Source: a virus (lineage: Duplodnaviria > Heunggongvirae > Uroviricota > Caudoviricetes). Taken from it: a stretch of 64,000 nucleotides of DNA. This document shows positions 4,727 to 46,451 of the stretch, piece after piece (position 1 is the stretch's first letter; each line of letters starts with the position of its first letter). The position numbers and the translations under genes are program-made. The notes below the pieces were generated by a model. It was not told the origin of the DNA and did not search any database. It was given only the letters and a program-made list of their open reading frames with translations. The stretch covers positions 231,832-295,831 of the IMG/VR virus record IMGVR_UViG_3300023179_004209; one strand, given 5' to 3'.

Positions 4727-4755
4727 TTGACATTGGTTTGGTCATATACTAATAT
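4727..4755 (+). promoter_or_regulatory. promoter TTGACA-N17-TAATAT
   Basis: ATG at 4767. Confidence 0.55.
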
Positions 4756-4766
4756 TTAAAAACAAT

Positions 4767-5129
4767 ATGAAAAACATTGTTCATGTGATTTATCCTGATG
4801 AAGCCGTTCATTCTTTTGTGATGGAGACTGATATGGTTGTTAGTGATATTCTGGAACGGGTATTTGCTGAATGGAATCACGGTTCTGGTATGGAATCTGA
4901 ATTGTTTATCAGGTCCAAGAAACGTTCATTGAGTGTCAATGATATTGTTTGTGTTAATGGTAAATATTATTTGTGTGAGTCTTTTGGATGGAATGAAGTG
5001 ACTCCACAATTTGTTAATGAACTGGAGGAGGAAGTTAGCAATCATCCTAATAGGATTCATGGTGCTTGGTTTGCATTGAATGATGTTATGTGGGACCGTA
5101 AGAGTAAGAACAATTTGGAACTTGTATAA
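4767..5129 (+). CDS. hypothetical protein
   Basis: ORF. Confidence 0.55.
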   Translation: MKNIVHVIYPDEAVHSFVMETDMVVSDILERVFAEWNHGSGMESELFIRSKKRSLSVNDIVCVNGKYYLCESFGWNEVTPQFVNELEEEVSNHPNRIHGAWFALNDVMWDRKSKNNLELV

Positions 5130-5135
5130 AAATTT

Positions 5136-5654
5136 ATGACTATTGAAAAGACTTATAAACTGACGATTAAAGACACTGCATATTTTCTAACTGAAGAAGA
5201 AGTAACAAAACTGTATGAACAGTGTCGTAAGGCATTGAATATTGATAATGCCCCTCCATACTTTCCTAATTATCCGCCGGGTGTAAGAAAGTTTGATGAT
5301 GATAAAACCAAACCATTAAATCCTACAACACCTAGTATTCCATATCCATATGATACTTATCCGTGGTATACGCCCAAGCATCCAAATGACACAGGTCATC
5401 CATATTGGACAGGACCTACTACAACTTGTGGCACAATTAACGCAGGTTCACCTGCTACAACTTGTGGCACAATTAAAGCCGGTGAAGGCATTTGTGTGAT
5501 GGATACAAATTGGCAAACCAATCTTTGTAATACTGTAAAGTCATCTAATGATATTAATTTTATATCAGATGACATGGCGGTTCATGAAGATAATCAAAAG
5601 TGGCGTTCTTCTGTAGAAAAAGCACTAGATAAGATTAATGCTGATAAAAAGTAA
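5136..5654 (+). CDS. hypothetical protein with tandem TTCGTI(N/K)AG repeat
   Basis: ORF; internal duplication. Confidence 0.55.
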   Translation: MTIEKTYKLTIKDTAYFLTEEEVTKLYEQCRKALNIDNAPPYFPNYPPGVRKFDDDKTKPLNPTTPSIPYPYDTYPWYTPKHPNDTGHPYWTGPTTTCGTINAGSPATTCGTIKAGEGICVMDTNWQTNLCNTVKSSNDINFISDDMAVHEDNQKWRSSVEKALDKINADKK

Positions 5655-5658
5655 TAAT

Positions 5659-5955
5659 ATGAAGAAGATTTATATTGAGAAGTTGGCAGAAGTACCCGGT
5701 GGATTACCTGCTAGAAATATGGATGAACATATTATGGGTAAACCTAATTATGATAACTACAGTAGCATTCCAATTGAATACAATTTGGAGGGTGTATTGA
5801 GTTATGATATTGAGGTGGGTAAACCTGTTGTTGTAGGTAGAACCAAGCGTAATGGTGTAGAAGCTTATGGCGTGTTTAGTACATCAAGGGTAACTGAGGT
5901 GGGTAACAACTATTTCAAAACACAGAATAGTGTATATAGTTATAAGTTTTTATGA
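5659..5955 (+). CDS. hypothetical protein
   Basis: internal ATG avoiding overlap with previous gene. Confidence 0.5.
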   Translation: MKKIYIEKLAEVPGGLPARNMDEHIMGKPNYDNYSSIPIEYNLEGVLSYDIEVGKPVVVGRTKRNGVEAYGVFSTSRVTEVGNNYFKTQNSVYSYKFL

Positions 5956-6134
5956 GGGCTATTAAGATTAAAGATTTACCGGATGGACCGTGGCGTGAAT
6001 ATGCGTTAGAAGCGCAACGGCGTGGAATTGAAATAGTTGGAGATGATATATTAAATGGGACTGATATAACGCTTATTGGTGCTATTGATATGATTAGAGA
6101 GTTGACGGAGAAGATTGAAAAGAAAACTGAATAA
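5952..6134 (+). CDS. hypothetical small protein
   Basis: ORF, 4-nt overlap with neighbour. Confidence 0.45.
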   Translation: MRAIKIKDLPDGPWREYALEAQRRGIEIVGDDILNGTDITLIGAIDMIRELTEKIEKKTE

Positions 6135-6140
6135 GTTTTT

Positions 6141-6488
6141 ATGAATATTACCGCTGCTAAAGATGTTCCTAATGTAGATCAAACTAGTATTTGGAAGGGA
6201 TTTTATGAGGCGCACTTTATGAGTGGTGAAGAAATAAACCAAAAGTATCCTATATTAAATACCAAGTGGAAATATTCAAATCATAAGCCAGTAACAGGTG
6301 GTAGTGAATATGGATACTACTATTCTTATTATAGGGATTGGAGTACTGAAGTAGTGACTGATCCGTGGTATAGAAATCTTATTAATAATGGTAATCCGAT
6401 TAATAAAAGTGAAATGGAAACTGTGTTTTCTACAACCGTGGAAGGCAACAAAGTTATATTAGTAATTTATCTAAATACATACGTATGA
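6141..6488 (+). CDS. hypothetical protein
   Basis: ORF. Confidence 0.5.
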   Translation: MNITAAKDVPNVDQTSIWKGFYEAHFMSGEEINQKYPILNTKWKYSNHKPVTGGSEYGYYYSYYRDWSTEVVTDPWYRNLINNGNPINKSEMETVFSTTVEGNKVILVIYLNTYV

Positions 6489-7048
6489 TTAACTATAAAC
6501 AACATTTGATTGACCGAGCAAATAATTTGGGTGTATATGATATTGCTTCTGTGGTAATTACAGATCCACGATTTGAATTGTGGAGTGGTAGTAGCAAAGA
6601 ACATCAACATCACTATGGTATGGGTGGTTTGATACAACATACATATGAAGTAGTTGAATTGTGTATTTCTAATTATATTTTATTAAAATTAGATGTTGAC
6701 CGAACTGAATTGTATTTGAGTGCGTTATTTCACGATTGTGGCAAAATGTGGGATTATGAACCAGTTAATGAAGAATATACAAAATGGCAAGGAACTGAAC
6801 ACAAACGAACTATTCATCATATCAGTCGTAGTGCAATTACTTGGAATCAGGCGTGTGCATTTCATAATTTCAAGTATGGTAAATATGCTGATAGTGTTAC
6901 CCACAACATTTTGTCACATCACGGACATCGTGAGTGGGGAAGTCCAGTGATGCCAAAGACTAAAGCTGCGTGGTTGTTGCATTTGTGTGATGGTATCAGT
7001 GCGAGAATGAATGATGCTGACAAGTGGGATTTTGTAAAAAAGGATTAA
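6485..7048 (+). CDS. HD-domain metal-dependent phosphohydrolase
   Basis: H..HD..H..H..D series: QHTYEV, FHDCGK, SHHGHREWG, HLCDGIS. Confidence 0.7.
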   Translation: MINYKQHLIDRANNLGVYDIASVVITDPRFELWSGSSKEHQHHYGMGGLIQHTYEVVELCISNYILLKLDVDRTELYLSALFHDCGKMWDYEPVNEEYTKWQGTEHKRTIHHISRSAITWNQACAFHNFKYGKYADSVTHNILSHHGHREWGSPVMPKTKAAWLLHLCDGISARMNDADKWDFVKKD

Positions 7049-7053
7049 AACAT

Positions 7054-7512
7054 ATGATTATACATAAAGATTGTAATATTTTTGATGGTGGTGCTCAAGG
7101 CATTATACATCAGGCGAATTGTCAAAACACTATGGGTAGTGGCATTGCTAGAGAAATTCGTGCTAGATATCCGGAGGCTTATGAAGTGGATTGTCTGACA
7201 ATTGCTGGTGACTATAAGAAGTTGGGTACATTTAGTAGTGTAAAGACTAATGATGGTAAATTTGTAATTTATAATTGTTATAGTCAGTATCGTTATGGGC
7301 GTGAAAAACGTCATACCAATTATGAAGCAGTTTATACTGGATTGAGTAGTATTGAACAAAATGCAAGAGAATTGGGATTAACTACACTTAGTTTGCCATA
7401 CAATATGGGATGTATGTTGGGTGGTGGTAGTTGGCGAATTGTTAGTGTGATCATTGATGAAGTTTTCAAAGATTCCCCAATAGATTTATATATTTGCAGG
7501 TATACCCCGTAA
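7054..7512 (+). CDS. Macro domain protein (ADP-ribose binding/processing)
   Basis: IFDGGAQGIIHQANCQNTMGSGIAREIRARYPE matches the Macro-domain N-terminal signature. Confidence 0.65.
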   Translation: MIIHKDCNIFDGGAQGIIHQANCQNTMGSGIAREIRARYPEAYEVDCLTIAGDYKKLGTFSSVKTNDGKFVIYNCYSQYRYGREKRHTNYEAVYTGLSSIEQNARELGLTTLSLPYNMGCMLGGGSWRIVSVIIDEVFKDSPIDLYICRYTP

Positions 7513-7519
7513 AAAAAGG

Positions 7520-7548
7520 TTGACTTGTTTTAAACTCCGTGGTAAAGT
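7520..7548 (+). promoter_or_regulatory. promoter TTGACT-N17-TAAAGT
   Basis: consensus family member; 30-nt leader to ATG 7586. Confidence 0.65.
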
Positions 7549-7585
7549 AGTGGAGTAATAAGAAACAACTAAAAAATAAAAAATT

Positions 7586-8197
7586 ATGGGATGTGACATT
7601 CATTTGTATATTGAGTATAAGTCTAAAGATGGATATGATCCTGCATGGCAAGGTTTTGGGGGAAATATTAATCCCGGCCGTAATTACGCAATGTTTGCAT
7701 TGATGGCAGATGTTCGTAACTATTATAGTGACGGAAAATTGCCTGTTTTGGTTGAACGCCGTGGTATGCCTGATGATGCGGGTTATACTGCAACGGATGA
7801 TAACCGAATCTATATTAGTGAAACTAAAAGTGAGGACTATGTTTCTATGGAAACTGCTAAGCGTTGGGTTAAGTCAGGCAGTAGCAAGTTCATCAACGAT
7901 AAGGATGGAAATCCAATTTGGGTTACTAATCCTGATGCACATAGTCATAGTTGGTTGACAACCAGTGAGTTTGAGAGTGTTATCAACAAGTATCTTGAAT
8001 TGGAAGCTGGTTGGCATAAAGTGCGTGTTGAGGAACATAACAAAATGGTTAAGGAAGAGAATATTCAGCCTGATAGTTGGGCTTATGCTCCTCCCTCTAT
8101 GGTTGATGAACCAGAGTATCAAGTTGTATTGGCTAGTTTGAAACGGTTTGAGGAACTTGGATATGATGCTCGTATTGTGTTTTGGTTTGACAACTGA
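7586..8197 (+). CDS. hypothetical protein
   Basis: ORF. Confidence 0.55.
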   Translation: MGCDIHLYIEYKSKDGYDPAWQGFGGNINPGRNYAMFALMADVRNYYSDGKLPVLVERRGMPDDAGYTATDDNRIYISETKSEDYVSMETAKRWVKSGSSKFINDKDGNPIWVTNPDAHSHSWLTTSEFESVINKYLELEAGWHKVRVEEHNKMVKEENIQPDSWAYAPPSMVDEPEYQVVLASLKRFEELGYDARIVFWFDN

Positions 8198-8339
8198 TTT
8201 ATATGAATCTAAAATGGGTGGAAGAAATACAACCAGTATTGGAAGAACAAGAGTTTATTTCTGGTATGCTTGAAATTGCTGAACAAAATGGCATCCGTTG
8301 TTGGGAATGGTGGTTAGAAGAAAAAGAAGAAGAATAATT

Positions 8340-9913: not shown

Positions 9914-10041
9914 TATGATTAAACAAACAAAAAAACATAGATTTTATGCGTGGTTACTTAAACATTTGATTTTGCCAAAATGTCTAAGAATGAGGCTTAT
10001 TAAAAAAGTAAGTGACACTGCTCAATATTGAATGTCAACAA

Positions 10042-10064
10042 CCCCTAGGATAAAGCCATAGGGG
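10042..10064. repeat. IS end hairpin CCCCTAGG-ATAAAG-CCATAGGGG (right end, overlaps tnpB stop)
   Basis: 8-bp stem with A bulge; near-identical copy at 11323-11345. Confidence 0.6.
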
Positions 10065-11211
10065 CTTGTAATGCTGTTGCTTTCACAACAGGCTTACATA
10101 CATTTGGCTGGTTGACGACAGCCTGCCCGTAAGTCAGGTAATTAGTCTGTGATACGGGAAGTTTGGACAATTTAGCAATATTGATTGCCGCATTAATGTC
10201 CGCATCATAAATAAGTCCATTCTTAGAGTAAAATCTACAACCTCTTCTTTCTCCATCACGATTTCCAGTTACACTATCAATCTGTGATGTATAATAAGGG
10301 CGAACTAGTAGAACCAATTTACCTTGATTCTCTGCCTTATAGCTTATTACTCTACGAAGTTCAAATATTGGAACTTGTCCAATTGAACGCTTATTTTGAT
10401 ATTTATTTTTTTTCTTTTTTATACCGACAAGATTTTCAAGCACGATTGTATCTGCTTCTGTGTTTAAAACTTCATTAGCAATCAAATGTGTTTGATTTCT
10501 ATTTTTGTTAGATTCTTTATGTTTTAACTTACGAAGATGTCTTCTGGCACTTTTAGTGCTTTTGGATTTGAGACTATCTTTTAAATGTCTCAATCTACGC
10601 TTATCTCCATTAAACTTTCTATCAATAATTATTCTACCATCACTACAAGCTGCATTACGACGAATGCCGATATCTACTCCTAAAGCGAGTTTTTGTTTTA
10701 ATGGTTCTTTAGGTTTATTATCAAATGTAAATGATATAAATAATTTACCATCATTTTCATAAATTAGAGGATCTGTATATTCATATTTGTCCAATAATTC
10801 CTTTAGTTTAGGATACACTACAAATTTAAATGATTGTCTTCCAGAAGTAGTAGTTATACGGATTGAATATTTATCAGTTTTGTTTTTTGAATAAAGTCTT
10901 TTATCTAAACGCATGGAAAGGTTTTTCTTTTCAATTGATTTTTTTAATCTGTGTTTATTTGACTTTGTAGATTTATAACTTGATAAACATTCTTGTTCTG
11001 CTTTAATAATAACTTGTGATGGTATATTTGGATATTGTTTTCTAATGTTATTATAAACTTTAGAATGTAAAACTAACAAACTATTTTTTGTTTCATTGAA
11101 TTGATGTTGTGAAGCAAAATTAAATACAACTTTATGCATTTCAAGAATTGACTTTAAACTATCAAAGTCTTCTTGATTTTTCATTAAAAGTTGTGTATTA
11201 TATGATATCAC
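10045..11211 (-). CDS. tnpB: TnpB (OrfB) RuvC-like RNA-guided nuclease family protein
   Basis: RuvC-I GVDIGIRRNAA, RuvC-II IVLENLVG, RuvC-III YDADINAAINIAK; zinc-finger Cys mostly lost. Confidence 0.75.
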   Translation of the reverse strand: MISYNTQLLMKNQEDFDSLKSILEMHKVVFNFASQHQFNETKNSLLVLHSKVYNNIRKQYPNIPSQVIIKAEQECLSSYKSTKSNKHRLKKSIEKKNLSMRLDKRLYSKNKTDKYSIRITTTSGRQSFKFVVYPKLKELLDKYEYTDPLIYENDGKLFISFTFDNKPKEPLKQKLALGVDIGIRRNAACSDGRIIIDRKFNGDKRRLRHLKDSLKSKSTKSARRHLRKLKHKESNKNRNQTHLIANEVLNTEADTIVLENLVGIKKKKNKYQNKRSIGQVPIFELRRVISYKAENQGKLVLLVRPYYTSQIDSVTGNRDGERRGCRFYSKNGLIYDADINAAINIAKLSKLPVSQTNYLTYGQAVVNQPNVCKPVVKATALQAPMALS

Positions 11212-11322
11212 TTCATATAAATATACACTATAAATACAAAAAGTGAAAAATAATGAAAAATATTTTTGTGGTTGACAAAATCAAGCGGTCAATGTATATT
11301 GATTACATAGTCGGAATTCCTC

Positions 11323-11345
11323 CCCCTAGGCTAAAGCCATAGGGG
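11323..11345. repeat. IS end hairpin CCCCTAGG-CTAAAG-CCATAGGGG (left end)
   Basis: same palindrome as 10042-10064. Confidence 0.6.
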
Positions 11346-11441
11346 TTTCCTTCCTCCAAAAAATATGAAGAAGAATGGTGGTGGATTGGATATAGTGATG
11401 GTGTGGATGATTATTCCAGAACTTTACATTTATAAAATAAT

Positions 11442-11786
11442 ATGAACAATAAAGAAATAGAATTTAATGTTGATGATTTAGTAAAAAGCGTTGAATCACT
11501 TGCTCAACATATAAAAAATGTACATTACGAAATGTATTATTTAAAAGAAGATTTGAACGAATATAAAAAAATAAACGAACTACAGCATAGGCTTATGAAA
11601 AACGCTGAAGAACGAGGTATAAAAAAAGGACTTCAAGAATCTCAAGAAGAATTACAAAAATATAAATCATTTGTAAATTCATTGCTTAGTCCCGAAGAAT
11701 ATGGTTATGCTGTTAGTGCTGAAGTGCGTGATCAAGCACGAATTTTGCTGGGTATGAAGCCAGTTGAAAGTAAATTAAAGAAATAA
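11442..11786 (+). CDS. coiled-coil protein; N-terminal EIEFNVDDLVKSVES motif
   Basis: ORF. Confidence 0.5.
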   Translation: MNNKEIEFNVDDLVKSVESLAQHIKNVHYEMYYLKEDLNEYKKINELQHRLMKNAEERGIKKGLQESQEELQKYKSFVNSLLSPEEYGYAVSAEVRDQARILLGMKPVESKLKK

Positions 11787-24215: not shown

Positions 24216-25991
24216 ATGGCAATCAATATTTTTACACATATACGTAGAGGTTTATATGATAATGTTTACAATTGTATAGAAAAAGAAAAGGTGGATGTCA
24301 ATCAAAGAGATGATGACACTGGCAATCCACCACTGGTTGTTGCGGTAGAAGAAAACCAAATAGAAATAGTCAGATTACTATTAAACCACGGTGCTGATGC
24401 CAATTGTAAAGATTGGACCAGTAAAAATACCGCATTGGATGTAGCTGAACAAAAAGGTTTCAAAAATATTGCAGAAGTATTACAACAAAGAGGTGCAAAA
24501 TACAGTAGTGGTAGTAGTTTCCATTTAGCTGCAAAGAATGGTGATATCGTTTCTATCGAAGAAATGTTGAATAAAGGATGTGATATCAATGAAGTTGACG
24601 CAGGTAAAGGTTGGACTGCTCTACATTACGCTGTTAATTATGGACAAAAACACTTGGTTGAATATTTGATTATAAGAGGTGCAGATGTCAACAAGAAAGA
24701 TTTCTTGGGTAAAAACAATCCTATTGATGTATTATCCAACACCAATAGAGGTGAAATTGTTAAATTATTGAATAAATACGGTGCTAAATCCGCAGGTGGT
24801 GTTAGTATTCATTTCTGCGCAGAAACTGGTGATTTTGAAGGTGTACAATCATTCTTTGATAAAGATGGTAAAGTTAATGGTAGAGATGAAAAGAATGGAT
24901 GGATGCCATTACATTATGCCGTTAACGCTAACGATGTTGATATGGTGGAGTTTTTGGTACATTTGGGAGCAAATGTTAACGGTGCAGATTTTAAAGGTGA
25001 AATTGCTCCGTTAGACATTGCATTCAAGACTGGGAATGTAGAAATGCAAACATATCTACAATCCAAAGGTGCGCAAAGAAAGAAGAAACATGATACTGGT
25101 GGTGGTGGCAAAGATGTAACCATCTATATTACAGAAGAAGTCAAGAAACAAATTGCAATGTTTATTGAAAAGCGTGAAAAAGAAGAAGCTGCAATAAAGA
25201 AACATGAAGAAGAACAAACTGCAAAAGAACCTAAAAAGAAAGATGCACCAGCTAAGAAAATTAACTGGAAAGATTTCTTGAAACTTAAAGATATTCCAGT
25301 TGTAGAAAAGAAAGAAGAAAAGAAGGTAGAAGTGGTTAAACCCGTCAAACAAATTGTCAAGAAAGTTGAACAAGTTGATATAGAAGTTAAATCCAGTAGA
25401 TTACAATTGGATGTTGAACAAGAAGGTTACATATTCTTCATGGACATTGTTGCTTATAGTAAGAAAACAACTGATGAACAAAAGAAAGCTTGTAAAGATT
25501 TGGGTGCATTGGTTAAGTCTACAATGCAATATAAAACCGCTAATGCTCTTGAAAAGTTAATTATATTACCTACTGGTGACGGTATGGTATTGGGATTCTT
25601 TACTTATTTGGAAGATGCAATGAATTGTGCTATTGCTATAGCTAAAGCAGTAAAGGATAGACCAGATTTACAAATGAGAATGGGTGTACATTGTGGATCA
25701 GTAATTCCAATGGAAGACATCAATGGTAATCTTAACATTAGTGGTGACGGTATTAATTATGCTCAAAGAGTAATGGATGCGGGTGAAAGTAATCATTTAT
25801 TGGTTAGTTCAGCAGTAATGTTAAAGTATGACCGACCACCATATGTTTTGGTAAACGATCTGGGAGATGTAGTTGTAAAACATGGTGTAGTGATGCATTT
25901 GTATAGTTTACATGGTAGTGACTTTGGCAATAAAGCATTTCCATCTAGTAGAGTGAAGAAGGCAGAACCTACTGATTCAATCAAAAAATAG
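24216..25991 (+). CDS. ankyrin-repeat protein fused to class III nucleotidyl cyclase homology domain
   Basis: about 8 ANK repeats (GADANCKD, TALHYAV, PLHYAV...). K/E-rich linker. CHD motifs FFMDIVAYS, PTGDGMV, MRMGVHCGSV, SGDGINYAQRV. Confidence 0.65.
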   Translation: MAINIFTHIRRGLYDNVYNCIEKEKVDVNQRDDDTGNPPLVVAVEENQIEIVRLLLNHGADANCKDWTSKNTALDVAEQKGFKNIAEVLQQRGAKYSSGSSFHLAAKNGDIVSIEEMLNKGCDINEVDAGKGWTALHYAVNYGQKHLVEYLIIRGADVNKKDFLGKNNPIDVLSNTNRGEIVKLLNKYGAKSAGGVSIHFCAETGDFEGVQSFFDKDGKVNGRDEKNGWMPLHYAVNANDVDMVEFLVHLGANVNGADFKGEIAPLDIAFKTGNVEMQTYLQSKGAQRKKKHDTGGGGKDVTIYITEEVKKQIAMFIEKREKEEAAIKKHEEEQTAKEPKKKDAPAKKINWKDFLKLKDIPVVEKKEEKKVEVVKPVKQIVKKVEQVDIEVKSSRLQLDVEQEGYIFFMDIVAYSKKTTDEQKKACKDLGALVKSTMQYKTANALEKLIILPTGDGMVLGFFTYLEDAMNCAIAIAKAVKDRPDLQMRMGVHCGSVIPMEDINGNLNISGDGINYAQRVMDAGESNHLLVSSAVMLKYDRPPYVLVNDLGDVVVKHGVVMHLYSLHGSDFGNKAFPSSRVKKAEPTDSIKK

Positions 25992-26025: not shown

Positions 26026-27453
26026 ATGACCGTATCTGAATTAAAATCATTAATAAAAGAAGTATTACTTGAAGCAGTACCATTTGATAAATCAACTGAT
26101 ATTGAATACGGACTAAAAGCCAAGTATGATGAATTGGGCGATTATACATTTGGTGTAGAATTTGAATTTGAACCTGTTGTAGAAGAACAGAATTTATCAA
26201 TGGATCAAATCATAGAAAAGTTGTCAGAGTTGATGGGATCATCATACCGTTATGATAATGGATTAACTGACGCATATAATTCGTGGGTTGAAGAACAAAG
26301 AAAAGAAGCGGCTTGGAAATGGAACCGATATGGAACCATTGATAATATTGATAGATATGATGAAGAATATGGTCCAATGAGTGTAGATACATTTGATAGT
26401 AGTGTTCCAGAACCAGAAAGAAATGATTTTGATAGTGATGATGAATACAATGAAGCATATGAAAAATATGATGAAGTAAGAAATGAAATAGACAGTGAAT
26501 ATGATCGTTGGGAAAGAAGAAATCGAGGTGATTATGTTGATGAATATTTAAGACTTTTAGCAAGAAGTGGAGAATGGACTGATTTTATTCCAGATAGTGA
26601 AATGACTGTAACTGATATGGAAAATGGTATTGATTCTGCGTATAACTTATTAGATAGTTTGGGTGAAGATGTAAGAAAAGATGATAAACCAGATAAAAAT
26701 ACATGGGCAGTAGGAGAAGACGGACCAAATGTTGAAATAAGAAGCAGACATATGAGACAAACTGGTCATGATTTTAATATTATTTCCAAAGTAGGAAATT
26801 GGGTAAGTGATCAAGCAACACACGGTAAAACTGGGATGCATATTCATATAGGAGTTCCAAGTGATTTTGATATGTTTGATGTATTGGCAATGAGTACATT
26901 GGTTGATGAAAAAGCTATTAAATCTGAAGTAGCCATGGATAGAGATTTTAACAGTTTTGCTAAATTGAGAAGAAGTTTGAGTAACGCAATTTATAACAGA
27001 ATTCATGAATACATGCGTAGACAATCTGAAAATGTACCAAAATCTTTTATTCTTACAAACGCACAAATGAAAGAAATATTATCTGGATTTGATCGTAATC
27101 ATGGTACAAATATTGCAGCATTTAGTGAACATAAAACAATTGAATTTAGATATTTGGGATCTGATATGGCAGATCAAGTATTAAAGTGGATATCTTATTT
27201 CTTGTTGTTACCTCGTATTGCTAAGAGTAGAAATCAGATAAAATTGGATACTATTTATAATGAACAAATAGTAGCTACCAGATTACCAGGCAAGATTAAA
27301 TTTGATTTGTTTAAGACTGATGAACCAAGAACTAGTGTTCCAATGCCAAAAGAACCTGCAGATTTAATCAAACAAAAAGCATTTGAATTACCAAGCAAAT
27401 TGGATATTGCGAAACAACAAGCTGCGGTTAAAAAACAATCGGGAACACAATAA
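26026..27453 (+). CDS. acidic protein with propeptide-like N-terminus MTVSELKSLIKE
   Basis: ORF; D/E-rich first half. Confidence 0.55.
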   Translation: MTVSELKSLIKEVLLEAVPFDKSTDIEYGLKAKYDELGDYTFGVEFEFEPVVEEQNLSMDQIIEKLSELMGSSYRYDNGLTDAYNSWVEEQRKEAAWKWNRYGTIDNIDRYDEEYGPMSVDTFDSSVPEPERNDFDSDDEYNEAYEKYDEVRNEIDSEYDRWERRNRGDYVDEYLRLLARSGEWTDFIPDSEMTVTDMENGIDSAYNLLDSLGEDVRKDDKPDKNTWAVGEDGPNVEIRSRHMRQTGHDFNIISKVGNWVSDQATHGKTGMHIHIGVPSDFDMFDVLAMSTLVDEKAIKSEVAMDRDFNSFAKLRRSLSNAIYNRIHEYMRRQSENVPKSFILTNAQMKEILSGFDRNHGTNIAAFSEHKTIEFRYLGSDMADQVLKWISYFLLLPRIAKSRNQIKLDTIYNEQIVATRLPGKIKFDLFKTDEPRTSVPMPKEPADLIKQKAFELPSKLDIAKQQAAVKKQSGTQ

Positions 27454-27472
27454 TTCTTATATTTATAACAAT

Positions 27473-28936
27473 ATGACATTGTTTGAACATATTTTGATTG
27501 AAGGTAGAGTGGATGATTTTAAGAATTTATTAAAAAATAAGTTCAGCATTGATTATGTTCAAAAGATTATCAATAGAGATACCAGCAAAAACCATAAGAA
27601 TTTGTTATGGATTGGTAAGATACTAAAAACAGAACCAGATATCAATGAAGAAGATTTGTTTAAAAATCTGGAAATATTCAACAAAGTAGCATCATCCACT
27701 GATTTGTATAGTTTTAAAGAGTATAGTACATTTTTGAGTTTCTTACAAAAGAAAAGTAAAGAAGTACAAATGGGTAAGATGGCTCAAATCAAAGCTGGTT
27801 CACGTACAATTAAAGATGATAAAAGATGGTTGGTAGTTGCACCAGAAACACATGATGCAAGTAGATATTTTGGTGGTGGTACCAGCTGGTGTATCAGTAC
27901 AAGCAATGATAGATACTGGAAAGATTATTATTATGCACAAACCATAGTAATGATTAAAGATAGAAGTAAGAAACCAGACAATGACTTGTTCAAAGTTGCC
28001 ATTGTTGGTAATGCCTATGAACAACTTTGGGATACTAGTTTTAGTGATAAGATAGATAAAATCAGAGAATTATCAAAACATGTAGATTTATATAATGTCA
28101 ATGACAATAAATTAAGTGGTGACCAAAAAATTAATTATTTAGGACAATTACCAGAAGATTTAATTGAAGACTTGATGAATTATTTTAATGATGATGATGT
28201 CTATGAAAGACAAACCAATCATTATTATGAACTTGCAAGAGAAAGATATGATGAAGGTGGTAAAGAAGAACTTTTGAAATCATTGTTTAATACTACGGTA
28301 GCGTATTTTGATGCGGATGTTGATTTTCATGCAGATGATTTTGGTGATTTAATGAGCAGACAATTTGCAGATGAAATTCAAGACGGTAATTGGGATGAAT
28401 TTTTAAGTGAACTATGGGGTGCATGTATAACTTATCAAGGTGTAGAGGATGATTCTTTTTATGCTGAAGTAAATACAAGAAATTTCAAAAACTTGATAAG
28501 TGATACCAGTTATGATTTAAATACCTATCTTGATTTAGCCAAAGAAGTATTGAAAAATGAGGATATATCAAATATGGATAACATCATAAAAGATGCGTTG
28601 ATTAAAACATCTGATAATGGTGATCCATATACTGTAATTAAAAGACAAGCAAATCAATTAAAAGATACAAATTATAATGATATAATATTATCATCATTAA
28701 ATGCATATAATGCAAAAAATAATCCTACTTTTATTCAAGGTCAGAGATCTTTGGGACCAGAATTTATGGGTATTGTAAATAAATTTAAACCAAAGAACAT
28801 TGAGGATGTAATTAAAGTGTTGAGTATCAATCCTAGAGCAAAGGATATGATTGATCAGATACAAAGATACAGAAGAGATTTGTATGAATCCAAGAAAAAG
28901 CGGACAATTAAATATAGAGATTTTTACAAATTATGA
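27473..28936 (+). CDS. hypothetical protein (N-terminus MTLFEHILIE)
   Basis: start moved to ATG after TATATTTATAACAAT to avoid 70-nt overlap. Confidence 0.5.
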   Translation: MTLFEHILIEGRVDDFKNLLKNKFSIDYVQKIINRDTSKNHKNLLWIGKILKTEPDINEEDLFKNLEIFNKVASSTDLYSFKEYSTFLSFLQKKSKEVQMGKMAQIKAGSRTIKDDKRWLVVAPETHDASRYFGGGTSWCISTSNDRYWKDYYYAQTIVMIKDRSKKPDNDLFKVAIVGNAYEQLWDTSFSDKIDKIRELSKHVDLYNVNDNKLSGDQKINYLGQLPEDLIEDLMNYFNDDDVYERQTNHYYELARERYDEGGKEELLKSLFNTTVAYFDADVDFHADDFGDLMSRQFADEIQDGNWDEFLSELWGACITYQGVEDDSFYAEVNTRNFKNLISDTSYDLNTYLDLAKEVLKNEDISNMDNIIKDALIKTSDNGDPYTVIKRQANQLKDTNYNDIILSSLNAYNAKNNPTFIQGQRSLGPEFMGIVNKFKPKNIEDVIKVLSINPRAKDMIDQIQRYRRDLYESKKKRTIKYRDFYKL

Positions 28937-29874
28937 ATAACGAAGGTATATCATTGATTGATACAAAGAAAGGTATTCCCAGATTAAATTTTAGATTTGA
29001 CAAAGATTATCCTGAAGATTTTATATCAATTGGTTCTGGAAAGTTCATCCAAAAAAGAACTGGTGATATTAATTTAATTTATTTGGCTCATAAATTCATG
29101 AGTGAAAAAGAGGTGATGGATCAATTGTCATTTTATATAAATCAAACAGACATTAATGCAAATCCTACCATTAATGCTAAAATTGCTAGATACCCAGATT
29201 TATTTTTCACATATAAAAAAGAAATAAGAAAAGCAATTAAAAACTTAAGTGCTACTGATTATATATCATTTACTGGTAAAAATATAGAACATGTTAAAAC
29301 AATGATACATAGAGGTATACTTGATTTTAACAATAGAATAAACTATGTTAAAGATTATGATTTGATTATTACTGTTCCTAGTCAAGCTCCGTTAAATCAA
29401 ATGATAATTAATGAATTTAAGAGTTATATAAATCCAGAAAAAACTTTGGTAATAGATGACTTTTTATTAAAAAACCGTGTTAAAGATATTAGATGGGATA
29501 ACAATGAATATTTGGAAGTAGAAGAAAGAGAAGGAAAAAATCCTGATCAAATTGCCAAAGTAAGAAAAATGAGAGATATTATGTTGAAAAGTATATATTC
29601 AAAAGGCAATCTAAATAAAGACTTTCAAGTAAAGATGGTAACCAAATCCAGTTTAAGAAGATATTTTCATAAGTTCATGCACATTAATGATAAACTAGAT
29701 GAACAATTATTTTTAAAGATTAACAATGGTAAAATACTAATTATTGATGATAGCTTTGGTTCAGGAGTAACTATGAAAGAATCATCAAGAGCGATTAAAC
29801 ATTTAAATCCTAAAACAGTTGACGCATTCATTCTGCTCCACGATTACGCACCAACAGCTAAAAAAACTGGTTGA
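28933..29874 (+). CDS. hypothetical protein
   Basis: ORF. Confidence 0.55.
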   Translation: MNNEGISLIDTKKGIPRLNFRFDKDYPEDFISIGSGKFIQKRTGDINLIYLAHKFMSEKEVMDQLSFYINQTDINANPTINAKIARYPDLFFTYKKEIRKAIKNLSATDYISFTGKNIEHVKTMIHRGILDFNNRINYVKDYDLIITVPSQAPLNQMIINEFKSYINPEKTLVIDDFLLKNRVKDIRWDNNEYLEVEEREGKNPDQIAKVRKMRDIMLKSIYSKGNLNKDFQVKMVTKSSLRRYFHKFMHINDKLDEQLFLKINNGKILIIDDSFGSGVTMKESSRAIKHLNPKTVDAFILLHDYAPTAKKTG

Positions 29875-40929: not shown

Positions 40930-41571
40930 ATGTTAAAATCATTATTATCACTACTATTAACTACAACAATATTTGCAGCGGAATTTGAATCGGTAAATTA
41001 TTATACAAAGAATTACCTATTTGACGCTCAAATATATTCTGTCAATACTTTCGTATCCGAAAACACACTTAGCCATCAACTAGGTGATTTTACGCCGCAT
41101 CTTGACTATGTACAATACCAAGGTTTGGATAAATATAAAGAAAGTGACTTTGGATTTGGTAGTGAATATAAACTAACAGATAAACTAAATTTGGATGTAG
41201 GTAGTTGGTATTACTATTATTACAGTGCAGGTGACCATTATTTTGAACCATACGCATCATTAACTTATGATTGGATAGTATCACCAACATTATATTTTAG
41301 TATGATAACATACAATAATACACCTAGAGCAACAATAAGCTTTGATTATAACAAAGATTTTAATGAAAAGCTGCATTTGAATGTAAGACCAGTGATTGGT
41401 ACTGCAGACTATGATGTAAGATATGGTTATTATGGTATAGTATTTGGTTTGGATTACAATGTAAATAAGAATTTTACATTGTTTACTGTTACAGAAGTTG
41501 ATAAACCTTTTAGTTCACCTGACGATAGTATCGTATACACTTATTCATTTGGAATCAAATTATCCCTATGA
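40930..41571 (+). CDS. secreted Tyr-rich beta-rich protein (possible outer-membrane protein)
   Basis: signal peptide MLKSLLSLLLTTTIFAA; alternating aromatic pattern. Confidence 0.5.
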   Translation: MLKSLLSLLLTTTIFAAEFESVNYYTKNYLFDAQIYSVNTFVSENTLSHQLGDFTPHLDYVQYQGLDKYKESDFGFGSEYKLTDKLNLDVGSWYYYYYSAGDHYFEPYASLTYDWIVSPTLYFSMITYNNTPRATISFDYNKDFNEKLHLNVRPVIGTADYDVRYGYYGIVFGLDYNVNKNFTLFTVTEVDKPFSSPDDSIVYTYSFGIKLSL

Positions 41572-43007
41572 AATTTCTTAAATTCAATTTGAGATTCGCA
41601 TTATCTACCAGCACACTATTCATTTTAGTGTTGGTAAGTATGGTATATTTCTTTTTGTTAATATTTGCAATTGAAGATATTGCAAAGAATAGTTTGAAAA
41701 GAAGTTTAAATACCTCGGTGAATATTTGTAGCAGTATTCTTGACCCAAATGAAATTGAAAAGTTAACTGAATATGAACAAGAAAAAAGCGAAGTATTTAT
41801 CAATTACAGAAAGTCTATCAAAGAAATAAAGAAAGAAGTAGAAGATATTAAATTTGTTTATATTGTAAGACAAACGGGTACAAATATCACTTATATAATA
41901 GATTGTGGTGATGATGTATCCGAACAAGCTAAATTGGGTGAAATATATGATGATGCGGGTGATGGATTGAAAGAATTATTTAACAATCCAGTTGAAGGTG
42001 TAACATTTGAGAAAGAATATTATACAGACAAGTGGGGTACATTTTTATCCGCATATAAACCAATATTTAAAAACGGTAAAATCATATATGCAGTTTGCAG
42101 TGATATCAAGTCAGTTGATGTTGAAAAGTATATATCAAATTATAAAAAGAAGTTTACTTGTGCATTTTTTACATTGTTAATTGTTATATTTCCAATCATA
42201 TGTTGGATAACAAATATGATTAGAAGACCACTTAATAAGTTAAGAGATGAAATTCTCAAGTTAAAAGATTTGGATGTAGATGAACATATTGATTTTAAGA
42301 GTAGTATCAGTGAAGTAAATGATATGATTGACGCAACTGATAAGGTAAAAACTGGTTTAAGATCATTTTCAAAGTATGTACCTGACAAGGTTGTAAAACA
42401 ATTGATAAGTCAAGGTAAGGATGCAAAAATTGGTGGGGAAAAAGAATATGTAACAATACTATTTAGTGACATTGAAGGATTTACAAGTATATCTGAAAAC
42501 AATGATACTCAAGAAGTTGTAACTGCATTAAATGAATATTTTGATATCTATGTACATTGTTTGGAAGAAAGTGGTGCAACTGTTGATAAATTCATTGGTG
42601 ACGCTGTAATGTCATTTTGGAATGCACCAAGTAAAGTTGAAAACCATGAATTTATTGCGGTCAAAACTGCAATGGAAATTGTCAAAGAAATTAATAAATT
42701 GAATCAAAAATGGAAAACTGAAGGTAAGAAATTTACATTCAAAACCAGAATAGGTATCAATTCTGGTGAAGTTATTGTCGGTAATATTGGTTCGACAAAC
42801 CGTATCAATTATACTGTTACTGGTGATCCTGTTAATTTGGCATCAAGATTAGAAGCGTCAAATAAACAATACAATACAACAATTTTAGTAAGTGAATCTG
42901 TTTATAATAAAACAAAAGAGTCAATTGATTATAATTATATTGACACAGTGAAGGTAAAAGGAAAAGAAATATATGTAAAAGTATATCAACCCGTTAAACT
43001 CAAGTAA
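41568..43007 (+). CDS. transmembrane sensor class III adenylyl/guanylyl cyclase
   Basis: TM1, about 150-aa extracytoplasmic domain, TM2, linker, then CHD. CHD motifs FSDIEGFTSISE, KFIGDAVMSFWNAP, RIGINSGEVIVGNIGS, TVTGDPVNLASRLE. Confidence 0.75.
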   Translation: MKFLKFNLRFALSTSTLFILVLVSMVYFFLLIFAIEDIAKNSLKRSLNTSVNICSSILDPNEIEKLTEYEQEKSEVFINYRKSIKEIKKEVEDIKFVYIVRQTGTNITYIIDCGDDVSEQAKLGEIYDDAGDGLKELFNNPVEGVTFEKEYYTDKWGTFLSAYKPIFKNGKIIYAVCSDIKSVDVEKYISNYKKKFTCAFFTLLIVIFPIICWITNMIRRPLNKLRDEILKLKDLDVDEHIDFKSSISEVNDMIDATDKVKTGLRSFSKYVPDKVVKQLISQGKDAKIGGEKEYVTILFSDIEGFTSISENNDTQEVVTALNEYFDIYVHCLEESGATVDKFIGDAVMSFWNAPSKVENHEFIAVKTAMEIVKEINKLNQKWKTEGKKFTFKTRIGINSGEVIVGNIGSTNRINYTVTGDPVNLASRLEASNKQYNTTILVSESVYNKTKESIDYNYIDTVKVKGKEIYVKVYQPVKLK

Positions 43008-45530: not shown

Positions 45531-45606
45531 GTCCCTATAGCTCAAACGGATAGAGCATCTGCCTTCTAAGCAGATGATCCAGGTTCGATTCCTGGTGGGG
45601 ATACCA
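45531..45606 (+). tRNA. tRNA-Arg (anticodon TCT)
   Basis: hand-folded cloverleaf. Acceptor GTCCCTA/TGGGGAT with wobbles; D-stem GCTC/GAGC; anticodon arm TCTGC-CTTCTAA-GCAGA; T-arm CCAGG-TTCGATT-CCTGG; A+CCA. Confidence 0.7.
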
Positions 45607-45668
45607 TTTTTTGAACATATTTATAAATTTGTATATATTTATATGTTCAAACTTCTCTAAAAAAGAAG

Positions 45669-45696
45669 TTGATTCTTTGAAAATTTGCGGTAAGAT
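45669..45696 (+). promoter_or_regulatory. promoter TTGATT-N17-TAAGAT followed by the AGTAGTAAGT..GTTCTTT motif
   Basis: one of four promoters in the RNA cluster followed by GTAGTAAGT. Confidence 0.45.
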
Positions 45697-45823
45697 AAAG
45701 AAGTAGTAAGTAATTTGTTCTTTCAGCATGGTGGGAGAAGCACTCCTCTAGAACATCTTCGTATGGCGGAACTGCCTTGACCTTTAATCAAAGGGGGTCA
45801 CCAACGAAAGAAACAAATTACTG

Positions 45824-45852
45824 TTGACAAAAGAATAAATCGTGGTAAGATA
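45824..45852 (+). promoter_or_regulatory. promoter TTGACA-N17-TAAGAT followed by AGTAGTAAGTTCTTTAAAA
   Basis: as above. Confidence 0.5.
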
Positions 45853-45936
45853 AAAAAGTAGTAAGTTCTTTAAAATAAAAATATGAAAGTAAAGGATTAC
45901 TAATCTTTTGCTTATAATGTATAATATATATTCTAT

Positions 45937-46368: not shown

Positions 46369-46375
46369 AATTTAT

Positions 46376-46451
46376 GGGATTGTAGCTCAATTGGCAGAGC
46401 AGTTCGCTTTTAACGAATTGGTTGACGGTTCAAGTCCGTCCGGTCCCACCA
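46376..46451 (+). tRNA. tRNA-Lys (anticodon TTT)
   Basis: GGGATTG..CGGTCCC acceptor; anticodon loop CTTTTAA; T-arm GACGG-TTCAAGT-CCGTC; A+CCA. Confidence 0.7.

What the first reader, a model, noticed from the sequence alone, without database searches (positions are those of the whole stretch)
6485..7512. Adjacent HD-domain hydrolase and Macro domain genes in the early region
The HD protein (FHDCGK, SHHGH, HLCDGIS) is followed within 5 nt by a Macro domain protein (GGAQGIIHQANCQNTMGSGIAREI). Macro domains bind or hydrolyse ADP-ribose and derivatives. HD enzymes cleave phosphoester bonds in nucleotides. Together as early genes they could reverse host ADP-ribosylation or destroy NAD-derived immune signals (for example Thoeris gcADPR, or ADPR-based signals).
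Basis: inference. Interest (0 to 1): 0.55.

Follow-up and report, generated by a model that had tools for sequence, protein, structure and literature searches.

The report
Unlinked phage Macro and HD enzymes
Two real phage enzyme genes sit side by side: an ADP-ribose-processing Macro domain of a type already known to counter bacterial NAD-based immunity, and a stripped-down YhaM-like HD nuclease/phosphodiesterase. Their adjacency looks like an accident of a mosaic gene block, not a two-gene system.

Summary
A 187-aa HD protein (6485-7048) is followed after 5 nt by a 152-aa Macro protein (true start 7054, end 7512). Both pass Pfam thresholds and give confident structure models.

The Macro protein belongs to the large phage family that includes Adpp, the Poa1p-like ADPR-1''-phosphate phosphatase that lets NARP1 phages beat the aRES defence. 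It is 36% identical to the tested Vibrio phage Gary enzyme, and the catalytic His is conserved. It shares the H..N...N...Q active-site signature with SCO6735, a stand-alone enzyme that removes DarT-made ADP-ribose from DNA. It lacks the catalytic Lys of DarG, TARG1 and AdfM. The 64-kb window contains no Adps, Namat, Nampt or Nmnat gene.

The HD protein is a YhaM-type HD domain with all six metal ligands but no OB domain. It has no known link to ADP-ribose.

The pairing is not conserved. The closest syntenic relative has HD but lacks the Macro cassette. A related phage carries both orthologues about 25 kb apart. Of 57 HD loci, 0 have Macro adjacent and 7 have it within 10 kb. About 3,000 cultured-phage records have the Macro protein and essentially none has this HD. 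Verdict: two independent accessory genes, of modest interest.

The parts
6485..7048 (+). Gene for a stand-alone YhaM-type HD-domain metal-dependent phosphohydrolase (187 aa) with no OB domain
   Evidence: Pfam HD 6.8e-8. The best NCBIfam hit is YhaM positions 147-285 of 314, at 53 bits against a cut-off of 460. PDB sequence hits are YhaM only: 9h3f at 1.4e-13 for the single protein and 9.1e-18 for the profile. In Foldseek, 9h3f is the only significant match (E 2.2e-8, TM 0.79) and all other HD enzymes score TM <= 0.5. H52, H83, D84, H145, H146 and D169 are invariant in 31 homologues. By my reading of the and 43 alignments they align with YhaM metal ligands H163, H193, D194, H250, H251 and D274 (PMC12107432).
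7054..7512 (+). Gene for a stand-alone ALC1-like macrodomain (152 aa) of the Adpp / Poa1p / SCO6735 'H-x-x-N ... N-x-x-x-Q' type
   Evidence: Pfam Macro 7.2e-6; phrog_335 9.5e-41; PADLOC DarG 3.8e-15 over the macro part only. BLASTP gives 36% identity to Gary Adpp (E 7e-24) and 40% to the Pakpunavirus NARP1-associated macro (E 2e-29), against 29% over 85 aa to PhiKZ AdfM. N22, N74 and Q78 are invariant and H19 is present in at least 90% of the 29 homologues. Foldseek top hits are TARG1, DarG and Poa1p at TM about 0.8.
7042..8337 (+). 1.3-kb cassette (Macro gene plus the next ORF) that is missing from the closest syntenic relative
   Evidence: By blastn, window 6484-7041 matches L029 4796-5374 (85%) and window 8338-9062 matches L029 5783-6510 (93%). 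The stretch between has no counterpart in L029, which instead has about 0.4 kb holding an unrelated 120-aa ORF.
7586..8197 (+). 203-aa ORF of unknown function that travels with the Macro gene in near-identical contigs
   Evidence: 95% identical copies lie directly downstream of Macro in L015, L016 and L017. It is absent from L001/L029. It matches phrog_10141 (unknown function) at 2.5e-18 and has no Pfam or PADLOC hit.
4767..7512 (+). Tightly packed seven-gene block whose last two genes are HD and Macro; probably one transcription unit
   Evidence: Inter-gene gaps are 6, -17, -4, 6, -4 and 5 nt, followed by a 73-nt gap after Macro. Promoter-like sites lie at 4727-4755 and 7520-7548, but the promoter-like count in the region is not above the shuffled controls.

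Best explanation
These are two independent accessory enzymes that happen to be neighbours at the end of a mosaic, probably co-transcribed block of small phage genes.

(1) The Macro protein is a stand-alone ALC1-like macrodomain hydrolase of the Adpp / Poa1p / SCO6735 type. It binds ADP-ribose through its two Gly-rich loops and acts at the C1'' position, using H19, N22 and Q78 rather than a catalytic lysine. Its most likely reaction is dephosphorylation of ADPR-1''-phosphate to ADPR. That would undo the product of RES-type NAD+ phosphorolysis (aRES defence) and feed an NAD+ reconstitution pathway that, if present, lies outside this window. Removing ADP-ribose from thymidine in DNA (anti-DarT2) is a realistic second or alternative activity.

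(2) The HD protein is the catalytic ring domain of a YhaM-type binuclear-metal phosphodiesterase without the OB substrate-binding domain. It most likely trims 3' ends of ssDNA, RNA or short oligonucleotides for nucleotide scavenging or nucleic-acid processing.

Shown here: domain identities, active-site residues, homology ranks and lack of linkage. Inferred: substrates and biological roles.
For: Macro:
- Closest characterised relatives by pairwise score are NARP1-associated Adpp proteins (E 7e-24 and 2e-29). They share the motif string HQxNC..TMGSGIA..PEAYEAD..GD..KLG..NxYxQY..GCxLxGG.
- The only residue mutated in Adpp (H24A, which abolishes anti-aRES activity) corresponds to window H19.
- Purified Gary Adpp converts ADPR-1P to ADPR.
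- SCO6735 H24, N27, N81 and Q85 align with the family's H, N, N and Q. Q85A kills SCO6735, which cleaves dT-ADPr DNA and protects from DarT.
- Fold: TARG1, DarG and Poa1p at TM about 0.8.

HD:
- Hits are YhaM only, by both sequence and fold.
- All six metal ligands are invariant.
- The 120 best of 694 homologues are 176-233 aa, so the OB-less form is the family norm.

Independence:
- L001/L029 (HD 80% identical at protein level, flanks syntenic) lacks the Macro cassette.
- Contig Ga0102976_1002766 has the HD orthologue at about 41.5 kb and the Macro orthologue at about 67.5 kb.
- 0 of 57 IMG/VR HD loci have Macro adjacent; 7 of 57 have it within 10 kb, at 1-8.7 kb and in either order.
- 2,985 cultured-phage records have the Macro protein, against 12 weak (25-34% identity) hits for HD.
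- HD neighbourhoods vary: DnaE fragments, a NadE-like gene, DNA ligase, PRPS-like genes.
Against: - Adpp works only together with Adps and Namat: inactivating any of the three genes abolished anti-aRES activity. No Adps, Namat, Nampt or Nmnat homologue exists in this 64-kb window. The proposed phosphatase role therefore needs either NARP1 elsewhere in the genome (relatives are 105-188 kb, so much is unseen) or a different use of the activity.
- With the family profile, DarG macrodomains outrank Poa1p in the PDB. NCBIfam and PADLOC also name DarG first. A DNA substrate therefore cannot be ranked much lower.
- The two genes are probably co-transcribed and are kept together in three near-identical contigs. 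Macro lies within 10 kb of HD in about four lineages, which may be slightly more than chance; no formal null was computed.
- No activity was measured for either protein.
- In YhaM, loss of OB function strongly reduces ssDNA binding. An OB-less enzyme may therefore prefer small substrates that I cannot name.
Confidence: 0.6

Rival explanations
1. The Macro protein is primarily an anti-DarT2 factor. It would be a stand-alone DNA ADP-ribosyl glycohydrolase that strips ADP-ribose from thymidines on phage ssDNA, with the function of AdfM/DarG2 but the lysine-free, water-activating mechanism of SCO6735. The HD protein is unrelated to this role.
For: - With the family profile, the best PDB hits are the DarG macrodomains (5m3i 4.7e-16; 5m31 1.7e-14), ahead of TARG1, SCO6735 and Poa1p.
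- The NCBIfam DarG antitoxin model (4.7e-11) and the PADLOC DarG model (3.8e-15) are the only hits in those libraries.
- hhalign to PhiKZ AdfM gives 97% probability.
- The H/N/N/Q signature equals SCO6735's H24/N27/N81/Q85. SCO6735 hydrolyses dT-ADPr DNA with high turnover, protects from DarT, and even inhibits DarT by binding.
- A related phage carries this Macro protein about 6 kb from a NADAR gene, the enzyme class that reverses DarT1 guanine ADP-ribosylation.
Against: - By my count on the and 48 alignments, the catalytic Lys of DarG2 and AdfM (K80, K78) is replaced by an invariant Gln.
- Pairwise similarity to AdfM is weak (29% over 85 aa, E 3e-6) compared with Adpp (E 7e-24 to 2e-29).
- The only tested phage member of this clade is a small-molecule phosphatase.
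- SCO6735 residue K34, mutated in that study, is Ser29 here by my residue count. The electropositive DNA channel emphasised for SCO6735 was not examined.
Confidence: 0.25
2. One reading: HD and Macro form a two-enzyme unit acting sequentially on one ADP-ribose-derived molecule. For example, HD would open or cleave a cyclic or phosphodiester ADPR derivative (ADPR-1'',2''-cyclic phosphate, gcADPR), and Macro would then remove the remaining 1''-substituent, destroying an immune signal or toxic NAD+ breakdown product.
For: - A 5-nt gap and probable co-transcription.
- The arrangement is retained in L015 and L016.
- Macro lies within 10 kb of HD in 7 of 57 loci.
- HD genes often lie near NAD-related genes: Nampt, NUDIX and NadE in L021, a NadE-like gene in L025, and PRPS/Adps-like genes in L047, L048, L049 and L071.
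- In yeast the Poa1p step follows a cyclic phosphodiesterase step (established knowledge; also summarised in PMC9503650).
Against: - L015 and L016 are about 97% identical in DNA over the shared HD-Macro-ORF203 stretch, so they are not independent evidence.
- The syntenic relative L001/L029 keeps HD without Macro.
- Orthologues lie about 25 kb apart on one contig.
- No HD locus has Macro adjacent.
- About 3,000 Macro-bearing cultured-phage records lack this HD.
- The HD fold matches only YhaM, a nucleic-acid 3'-exonuclease. It does not match the cyclic-nucleotide phosphodiesterase HD families PgpH or HD-GYP (TM <= 0.46).
- Tight spacing is the rule for every gene in the block.
Confidence: 0.08
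3. The HD protein is itself an anti-defence enzyme that degrades oligonucleotide second messengers (linear or cyclic oligoadenylates, cyclic di- or trinucleotides) or other nucleotide alarm signals. It would use the YhaM-type active site freed from the OB domain. The Macro protein is unrelated.
For: - Loss of the OB domain, which YhaM needs for ssDNA binding, would suit small substrates.
- The family is strongly conserved: 39 invariant columns across 31 sequences down to 52% identity.
- It is restricted to large viral contigs, sitting in accessory regions that also hold Tad3, NARP2-like, NADAR and Macro genes.
- The distant HD structures that were hit include c-di-AMP and c-di-GMP phosphodiesterases.
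Against: - Those structural matches are weak (TM 0.36-0.46, E > 0.05).
- In other phages the gene sits in replication or nucleotide-metabolism contexts: DnaE, DNA ligase, dCMP deaminase.
- There is no significant PADLOC or PHROG functional hit.
- No experimental precedent was found.
Confidence: 0.1

Closest known systems
Adpp (ADPR-1''-phosphate phosphatase of the NARP1-AP pathway; Vibrio phage Gary KNV71_gp137; bioRxiv 10.64898/2026.01.28.702374)
   Same: It is a stand-alone phage macrodomain of about 155 aa with 36% identity (E 7e-24). Identity is 40% to the Pakpunavirus NARP1-associated members. It shares the motif string, the catalytic His (H24 = H19) and the N-x-Y-x-Q motif.
   Different: Adpp sits inside an Adps-Adpp-Namat operon and needs both partners to counter aRES. 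Here no Adps or Namat gene is found in 64 kb, and the upstream neighbour is an HD gene. Most homologues in cultured phages (e.g. phi92 gp185) are likewise outside NARP1.
SCO6735 of Streptomyces coelicolor (PDB 5e3b; PMC9411070)
   Same: It is a stand-alone ALC1-like macrodomain with the same H..N...N...Q signature, with Gln in place of the catalytic Lys. The family profile hits it at 1.9e-12.
   Different: It is a bacterial housekeeping or antitoxin-like enzyme acting on dT-ADPr DNA and Glu-ADPr protein. Sequence similarity to the window family is low (one family member, P0231, scores E 0.005). K34, which was mutated in that study, is Ser here.
DarG2 macrodomain and phage AdfM (PhiKZ gp104; PMC13309987)
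   Same: Same fold and class (TM about 0.8), a conserved Asn (N22), and, for AdfM, a stand-alone phage macrodomain with an anti-defence role.
   Different: The catalytic Lys (K80 in DarG2, K78 in AdfM) is an invariant Gln here. There is no C-terminal DarT-binding domain. Identity to AdfM is only 29% over 85 aa.
Yeast Poa1p (PDB 6lfq)
   Same: It shares the N-terminal H-x-x-N-C-x-x-[S/T]-x-G-x-G-I-A motif (by my reading of the Poa1p rows, Poa1p H23 and S30 correspond to window H19 and T26) and the fold (TM 0.8). It is an ADPR-1''-phosphate phosphatase.
   Different: It is a eukaryotic tRNA-splicing by-product enzyme. The C-terminal half is poorly alignable, and it has no Gln at the Q78 position.
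YhaM / Cbf1 3'-5' exonuclease (PDB 9h3f, 9o7t; PMC12107432)
   Same: The HD ring domain aligns over about 150-170 residues with all six metal ligands and flanking motifs (SHHG..EWGSP, D..SARMN). It is the only significant fold match.
   Different: The N-terminal OB domain (YhaM residues 20-90) is absent. The score is 53 bits against a 460-bit equivalog cut-off, with 25% identity. It is phage-encoded. The oligomeric state and substrate are unknown.

Membership tests
Macro domain superfamily (Pfam PF01661) | Profile match above the curated threshold and a macro alpha/beta fold | tested here: met
   26.4 bits against a cut-off of 22. Model pLDDT is 92. Foldseek matches TARG1, DarG and Poa1p at TM 0.76-0.81.
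Macro domain superfamily (Pfam PF01661) | Gly-rich ADP-ribose/diphosphate-binding loops | tested here: met
   M27-G28-S-G30-I-A32 and G119-C-M-L-G123-G124-G125 are present. G30 and G124 are invariant, and G28 and G119 are at least 90% conserved in the family.
Adpp (NARP1-AP phosphatase) | Sequence homology to the tested Vibrio phage Gary enzyme, with the Poa1p-like catalytic His | tested here: met
   36% identity over 136 aa, E 7e-24. Gary H24 (H24A is inactivating) aligns with window H19.
Adpp (NARP1-AP phosphatase) | Encoded within or next to a NARP1 operon (Adps + Namat) | tested here: not met
   tblastn with two Adps and two Namat references (plus Nampt and Nmnat) finds nothing in the 64-kb window at E <= 0.01. 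The same search does detect them in L020, L021 and L030. The rest of the genome is unseen.
Adpp (NARP1-AP phosphatase) | Converts ADPR-1''-phosphate to ADPR | not testable with these tools
   Needs an enzyme assay (LC-MS, as).
DarG2 / AdfM DNA ADP-ribosyl glycohydrolases | Active-site Asn (Taq DarG2 N22) | tested here: met
   Window N22 aligns with Taq N22 and is invariant in the family.
DarG2 / AdfM DNA ADP-ribosyl glycohydrolases | Catalytic Lys (Taq K80, PhiKZ AdfM K78, TARG1 K84) | tested here: not met
   This position is Q78, invariant in 29 homologues and in all Adpp-type sequences aligned.
DarG2 antitoxin (full length) | C-terminal DarT-binding domain | tested here: not met
   The protein is 152 aa. 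It covers PADLOC DarG profile positions 1-142 of 329 and NCBIfam positions 4-144 of 338, at 42.6 bits against a cut-off of 250.
SCO6735-type lysine-free ALC1-like macrodomains | H24 / N27 / Q85 active-site signature in a stand-alone protein | tested here: met
   A direct alignment of family member P0231 to 5e3b maps H24, N27, N81 and Q85 onto the family's H, N, N and Q, which are window H19, N22, N74 and Q78.
SCO6735-type lysine-free ALC1-like macrodomains | Hydrolyses thymidine-linked ADP-ribose on ssDNA | not testable with these tools
   Needs an assay on a DarT2-modified oligonucleotide.
YhaM 3'-5' exonuclease | HD domain with the extended binuclear metal site (H163, H193, D194, H250, H251, D274) | tested here: met
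   By my residue count on the and 43 alignments, the equivalents are H52, H83, D84, H145, H146 and D169. All six are invariant in 31 homologues.
YhaM 3'-5' exonuclease | N-terminal OB-fold nucleic-acid-binding domain | tested here: not met
   The protein aligns only to YhaM residues about 124-287. It is 187 aa, and the 120 best homologues are 176-233 aa.
YhaM 3'-5' exonuclease | NCBIfam equivalog score | tested here: not met
   53.4 bits against a cut-off of 460.
YhaM 3'-5' exonuclease | Mn2+-dependent 3'-exonuclease activity and hexameric ring | not testable with these tools
   Needs biochemistry. No multimer prediction was run.
   There are no sequence hits. By fold, 1xx7 scores TM 0.40-0.51, SAMHD1 scores TM <= 0.45, and all E values exceed 0.05.

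The most novel reading that the evidence does not exclude
The HD and Macro proteins cooperate in a NARP-independent two-step route. The OB-less YhaM-type HD enzyme would hydrolyse a cyclic or phosphodiester ADP-ribose derivative (for example ADPR-1'',2''-cyclic phosphate or a Thoeris-type cyclic ADPR), and the Adpp-type Macro protein would then remove the remaining 1''-substituent. That would make this a new phage module for destroying NAD-derived immune molecules.

A weaker variant is that the HD family alone is a new class of phage enzyme that degrades nucleotide immune signals.
Probability: 0.06. Interest if true: 0.7.

Novelty: new member of a known kind. Interest (0 to 1): 0.3.

Why it matters
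The Macro gene adds one more member to a very large phage family (about 3,000 cultured-phage records), one branch of which was recently shown to defeat RES-type NAD+ depletion.

The useful point for specialists is that this copy, like most of the family, lies outside any NARP1 operon. The tested enzyme is useless against aRES without NARP1. What the 'orphan' Adpp-like macrodomains do therefore remains open. Candidate roles are ADPR-1''P detoxification, DNA de-ADP-ribosylation as with SCO6735, or something else.

The shared H..N...N...Q signature between Adpp and SCO6735 suggests that one active site may serve both a small-molecule and a DNA substrate, which is directly testable.

The HD protein marks an uncharacterised, strongly conserved family of OB-less YhaM-type enzymes in large environmental phages. 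It is of modest interest for phage nucleotide metabolism.

The adjacency itself should not be used as guilt-by-association evidence.

Tried and rejected
- Megablast of 4 kb around the locus against 50,697 phage records found no match, so no annotated close relative exists.
- I first leaned towards a DarG2/AdfM-type anti-DarT assignment, based on the NCBIfam, PADLOC and PDB profile hits. I down-ranked it after finding the catalytic Lys replaced by an invariant Gln and much stronger similarity to Adpp.
- I looked for NARP1 or NARP2 genes in the window, including the candidate ORFs 27383-28936 and 28933-29874 (weak PRTase hit). tblastn with Adps, Namat, Nampt and Nmnat references found nothing, and PHROGs gave no NAD-related annotation.
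- I checked whether NARP3 could explain the recurrent NadE-like neighbour of HD. NARP3 is PnuC + NadR, so it is irrelevant.
- I searched for a conserved partner of the HD gene in 57 + 6 loci and found none. The neighbours differ between lineages.
- Literature searches for new YhaM/Cbf1 activities or phage YhaM-like proteins found nothing beyond 3'-exonuclease on RNA and ssDNA.
- The BFVD fold search gave only weak, unannotated HD matches.
- The promoter/terminator scan was uninformative, with counts at shuffle level.
- The 1.84-billion-protein representative search, the genome contigs and metagenome scans, and the third homologue search were not used.
Full report
**1. What is in the sequence**

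ORF listing and direct reading confirm two same-strand genes.

- The HD gene runs 6485-7048 (187 aa).
- The Macro reading frame is open from 7024. Its credible start is ATG 7054, preceded by AAGGA nine nt upstream, and it ends at 7512 (152 aa).
- The HD stop codon and the Macro ATG are 5 nt apart.
- Both domains exceed Pfam's curated thresholds: HD 33.3 bits and Macro 26.4 bits, each against a cut-off of 22.
- Both give high-confidence AlphaFold models, with pLDDT 93.8 and 92.2.

The window is a low-GC (about 32%) phage-like genome. It has eight tRNA genes and nearly all genes on one strand. It has no close DNA relative among 50,697 deposited phage records. The 5-nt spacing is not special. HD and Macro are the last two genes of a seven-gene block (4767-7512) whose gaps are 6, -17, -4, 6, -4 and 5 nt, and a 73-nt gap follows.

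**2. The Macro protein**

Library searches give these matches:

- phrog_335 'phosphatase' at 9.5e-41;
- NCBIfam DarG at 4.7e-11, far below its cut-off;
- PADLOC DarG at 3.8e-15, over the macrodomain part only.

A 29-member family alignment shows N22, N74, Y76, Q78 and G124 as invariant, and H19 in at least 90% of sequences. With that profile the best solved structures are:

- the DarG macrodomains (5m3i 4.7e-16; 5m31 1.7e-14);
- then TARG1;
- then SCO6735;
- then Poa1p.

Foldseek agrees, with TM about 0.8. In those alignments, by my count, Taq DarG2 N22 equals window N22. The catalytic K80 in 'NFPTKK' aligns with window Q78 in 'NCYSQY'. The same holds for K78 of PhiKZ AdfM, the first described phage macrodomain anti-DarT factor. 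The protein therefore fails a defining feature of the DarG2/AdfM/TARG1 catalytic type.

**3. Two experimentally studied relatives share the Gln**

*SCO6735.* This is a stand-alone bacterial macrodomain with Gln85 at the Lys position.

- Q85A abolishes its activity.
- It hydrolyses thymidine-linked ADP-ribose on DNA.
- It protects against DarT.

A direct alignment of family member P0231 with 5e3b maps SCO6735 H24, N27, N81 and Q85 onto the family's H, N, N and Q. These are window H19, N22, N74 and Q78.

*Adpp.* A January 2026 preprint shows that the RES-domain defence aRES breaks NAD+ into nicotinamide and ADPR-1''-phosphate. The phage NAD+ reconstitution pathway NARP1 cannot use that product. 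About 15% of NARP1 operons carry a Poa1p-like Macro-domain phosphatase, Adpp, which converts ADPR-1P to ADPR and restores counter-defence. Inactivating any of the three genes abolishes the effect.

The sequences in that paper's Table S1 carry the same motif string as the window protein. Pairwise comparisons rank as follows:

| Comparison | Identity | E-value |
|---|---|---|
| Window Macro vs Gary Adpp (tested enzyme) | 36% over 136 aa | 7e-24 |
| Window Macro vs Pakpunavirus NARP1-associated form | 40% over 142 aa | 2e-29 |
| Window Macro vs PhiKZ AdfM | 29% over 85 aa | 3e-6 |

The single Adpp residue mutated (H24A) corresponds to window H19. By homology, the window protein is therefore an Adpp-type macrodomain.

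**4. The caveat on the Adpp assignment**

Adpp needs Adps and Namat. tblastn with Adps, Namat, Nampt and Nmnat references finds nothing in the 64-kb window. It does find a full NARP1-AP operon in Pseudomonas phage vB_PseuGesM_254 (L020) and an Nampt in a related environmental phage (L021/L030).

phi92 gp185, a typical cultured-phage homologue, is also not next to NARP1. The family is present in 2,985 phage records, whereas the preprint counts roughly 130 NARP1-linked copies (15% of 859 operons). Most members are therefore 'orphans' whose physiological substrate is not established.

I rank ADPR-1''P phosphatase first. NARP1 may lie in the unseen remainder of a genome whose relatives are 105-188 kb. 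DNA de-ADP-ribosylation (an anti-DarT2 role with the SCO6735 mechanism) is a serious second.

**5. The HD protein**

Every line of evidence points to one family.

- NCBIfam's best hit is YhaM positions 147-285 of 314.
- The only PDB sequence hits are YhaM and Cbf1: 9h3f at 1.4e-13 for the single sequence and 9.1e-18 for the profile.
- The only significant fold match is 9h3f (E 2.2e-8, TM 0.79).
- PgpH, OxsA, the YfbR-like 1xx7, HD-GYP and SAMHD1 all score TM <= 0.5.

B. subtilis YhaM is a Mn2+-dependent 3'-exonuclease of ssDNA and RNA. Its HD domain forms a hexameric ring with two metals held by H163, H193, D194, H250, H251 and D274. Its N-terminal OB domain is needed for ssDNA binding. By my reading of the alignments, the window equivalents are H52, H83, D84, H145, H146 and D169. 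All six are invariant across 31 homologues.

The phage protein lacks the OB domain, as do the 120 best of 694 homologues, which are 176-233 aa. These come from metagenomes, and 57 relatives lie on IMG/VR viral contigs of 14-406 kb. Cultured phages have essentially no counterpart, with only 12 records at 25-34% identity. The viral structure library gives only weak, unannotated matches.

I infer a YhaM-like phosphodiesterase acting on 3' ends or short oligonucleotides. There is no evidence of an ADP-ribose link.

**6. Is the pair a unit?**

No evidence says so, and several results say otherwise.

- Contigs L015 and L016 (Macro protein 98% identical; about 97% DNA identity over the shared stretch) keep HD-Macro-ORF203, but they are the same lineage.
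- The closest syntenic relative, L001/L029, has HD at 80% protein identity and flanking genes at 80-100%. Immediately after the HD stop codon it has an unrelated 0.4-kb segment where the window has the 1.3-kb Macro + ORF203 cassette.
- On contig Ga0102976_1002766 (187.8 kb) the HD orthologue (78%) lies at about 41.5 kb and the Macro orthologue (76%) at about 67.5 kb.
- Of 57 IMG/VR loci holding an HD homologue with up to 10 kb on each side, none has Macro adjacent. Seven loci, from about four lineages, have it 1-8.7 kb away, on either side.
- The roughly 3,000 cultured-phage records with the Macro protein lack this HD.

HD's own neighbours vary: split DnaE genes, a NadE-like gene, DNA ligase, dCMP deaminase, PRPS-like genes and SPFH. 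The 7-of-57 figure may reflect the general clustering of accessory and anti-defence genes. The related phage has Nampt, NUDIX, NadE, Tad3, NADAR and Macro genes within about 40 kb. I did not compute a formal null.

**7. Verdict**

The Macro protein very probably is an ADP-ribose-derivative hydrolase with a role in NAD-centred phage-host conflict, and it belongs to a kind already described. The HD protein is an unrelated YhaM-type enzyme, and the adjacency is a lineage-specific accident of cassette exchange in a mosaic gene block.

The remaining interest lies in two open questions. One is what orphan Adpp-type, SCO6735-like macrodomains do without NARP1. The other is what the conserved OB-less YhaM-type HD family does in large phages.

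Noticed in passing
window 10045-11211 (- strand); compare L015 3586-4785: This is a TnpB / IS605 OrfB (Cas12f-like) gene, the only large minus-strand ORF in the region. Window 10033-11781 has no counterpart in the syntenic relative L029. The near-identical contig L015 carries a TnpB at a different site and on the other strand. IS elements therefore appear to be moving within this phage lineage.
   Followed up: partly
window 24216-25991 and 41568-43007: Two phage proteins carry class III adenylate/guanylate cyclase domains. One (591 aa) has N-terminal ankyrin repeats and a weak C-terminal cyclase match. The other (479 aa) has a strong cyclase domain (5.8e-27). Nucleotide cyclases in a phage are unusual and may manipulate host signalling.
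   Followed up: no
window 26026-29874: Three consecutive genes: an Amidoligase_2-domain protein (475 aa), a 517-aa protein of unknown function (phrog_17056), and a 313-aa protein with a weak phosphoribosyltransferase match. They are not Adps or Namat (no tblastn hit). The function is unexplained.
   Followed up: partly
window 45531-48990: A cluster of eight tRNA genes (Arg-tct, Lys-ttt, Glu-ttc, Met, two Ile-tat, Leu-caa, Leu-taa). Several are unusually long (84-93 nt). An HNH endonuclease gene (47661-48350) is embedded in the cluster.
   Followed up: no
window 55673-56764, 53028-53546, 49772-50395 (-): A T4 Rnl1-type RNA ligase, a dCMP/cytidine deaminase, and a minus-strand protein with DUF7936 plus an immunoglobulin-like domain.
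   Followed up: no
L021 and L011 (both from contig Ga0102976_1002766, 187.8 kb): A related environmental phage concentrates counter-defence and NAD genes within about 40 kb: NUDIX, Nampt (42% to KVP40), NAD synthase, the HD gene, Tad3, then NUDIX, a dual-specificity phosphatase-like gene, NADAR, a nucleoside deoxyribosyltransferase, two glycosyltransferases and the Macro gene.
   Followed up: partly
L025/L026 6001-7414; L021 7839-10564: A NAD synthase (PF02540)-like gene lies immediately downstream of the HD gene in L025/L026 and 1.2 kb upstream of it in L021. PRPS/Adps-like genes lie 2.6-3.7 kb downstream of HD in L047, L048, L049 and L071, with no Namat nearby. This is a weak recurrent association of HD with NAD/PRPP metabolism that I could not interpret.
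   Followed up: partly
L019 2707-3423 (phage phi92 gp185): The phi92-type homologue is 238 aa. It has an N-terminal extension of about 85 residues that is absent from the window protein and from the Adpp sequences. It follows genes annotated 'hydrolase' and 'putative orotate phosphoribosyltransferase', which gave no Adps or Namat hit.
   Followed up: no
window 7586-8197: A 203-aa ORF (phrog_10141, unknown function) is gained and lost together with the Macro gene as one cassette. A promoter-like site (TTGACT-17-TAAAGT, 7520-7548) lies between the two genes.
   Followed up: partly
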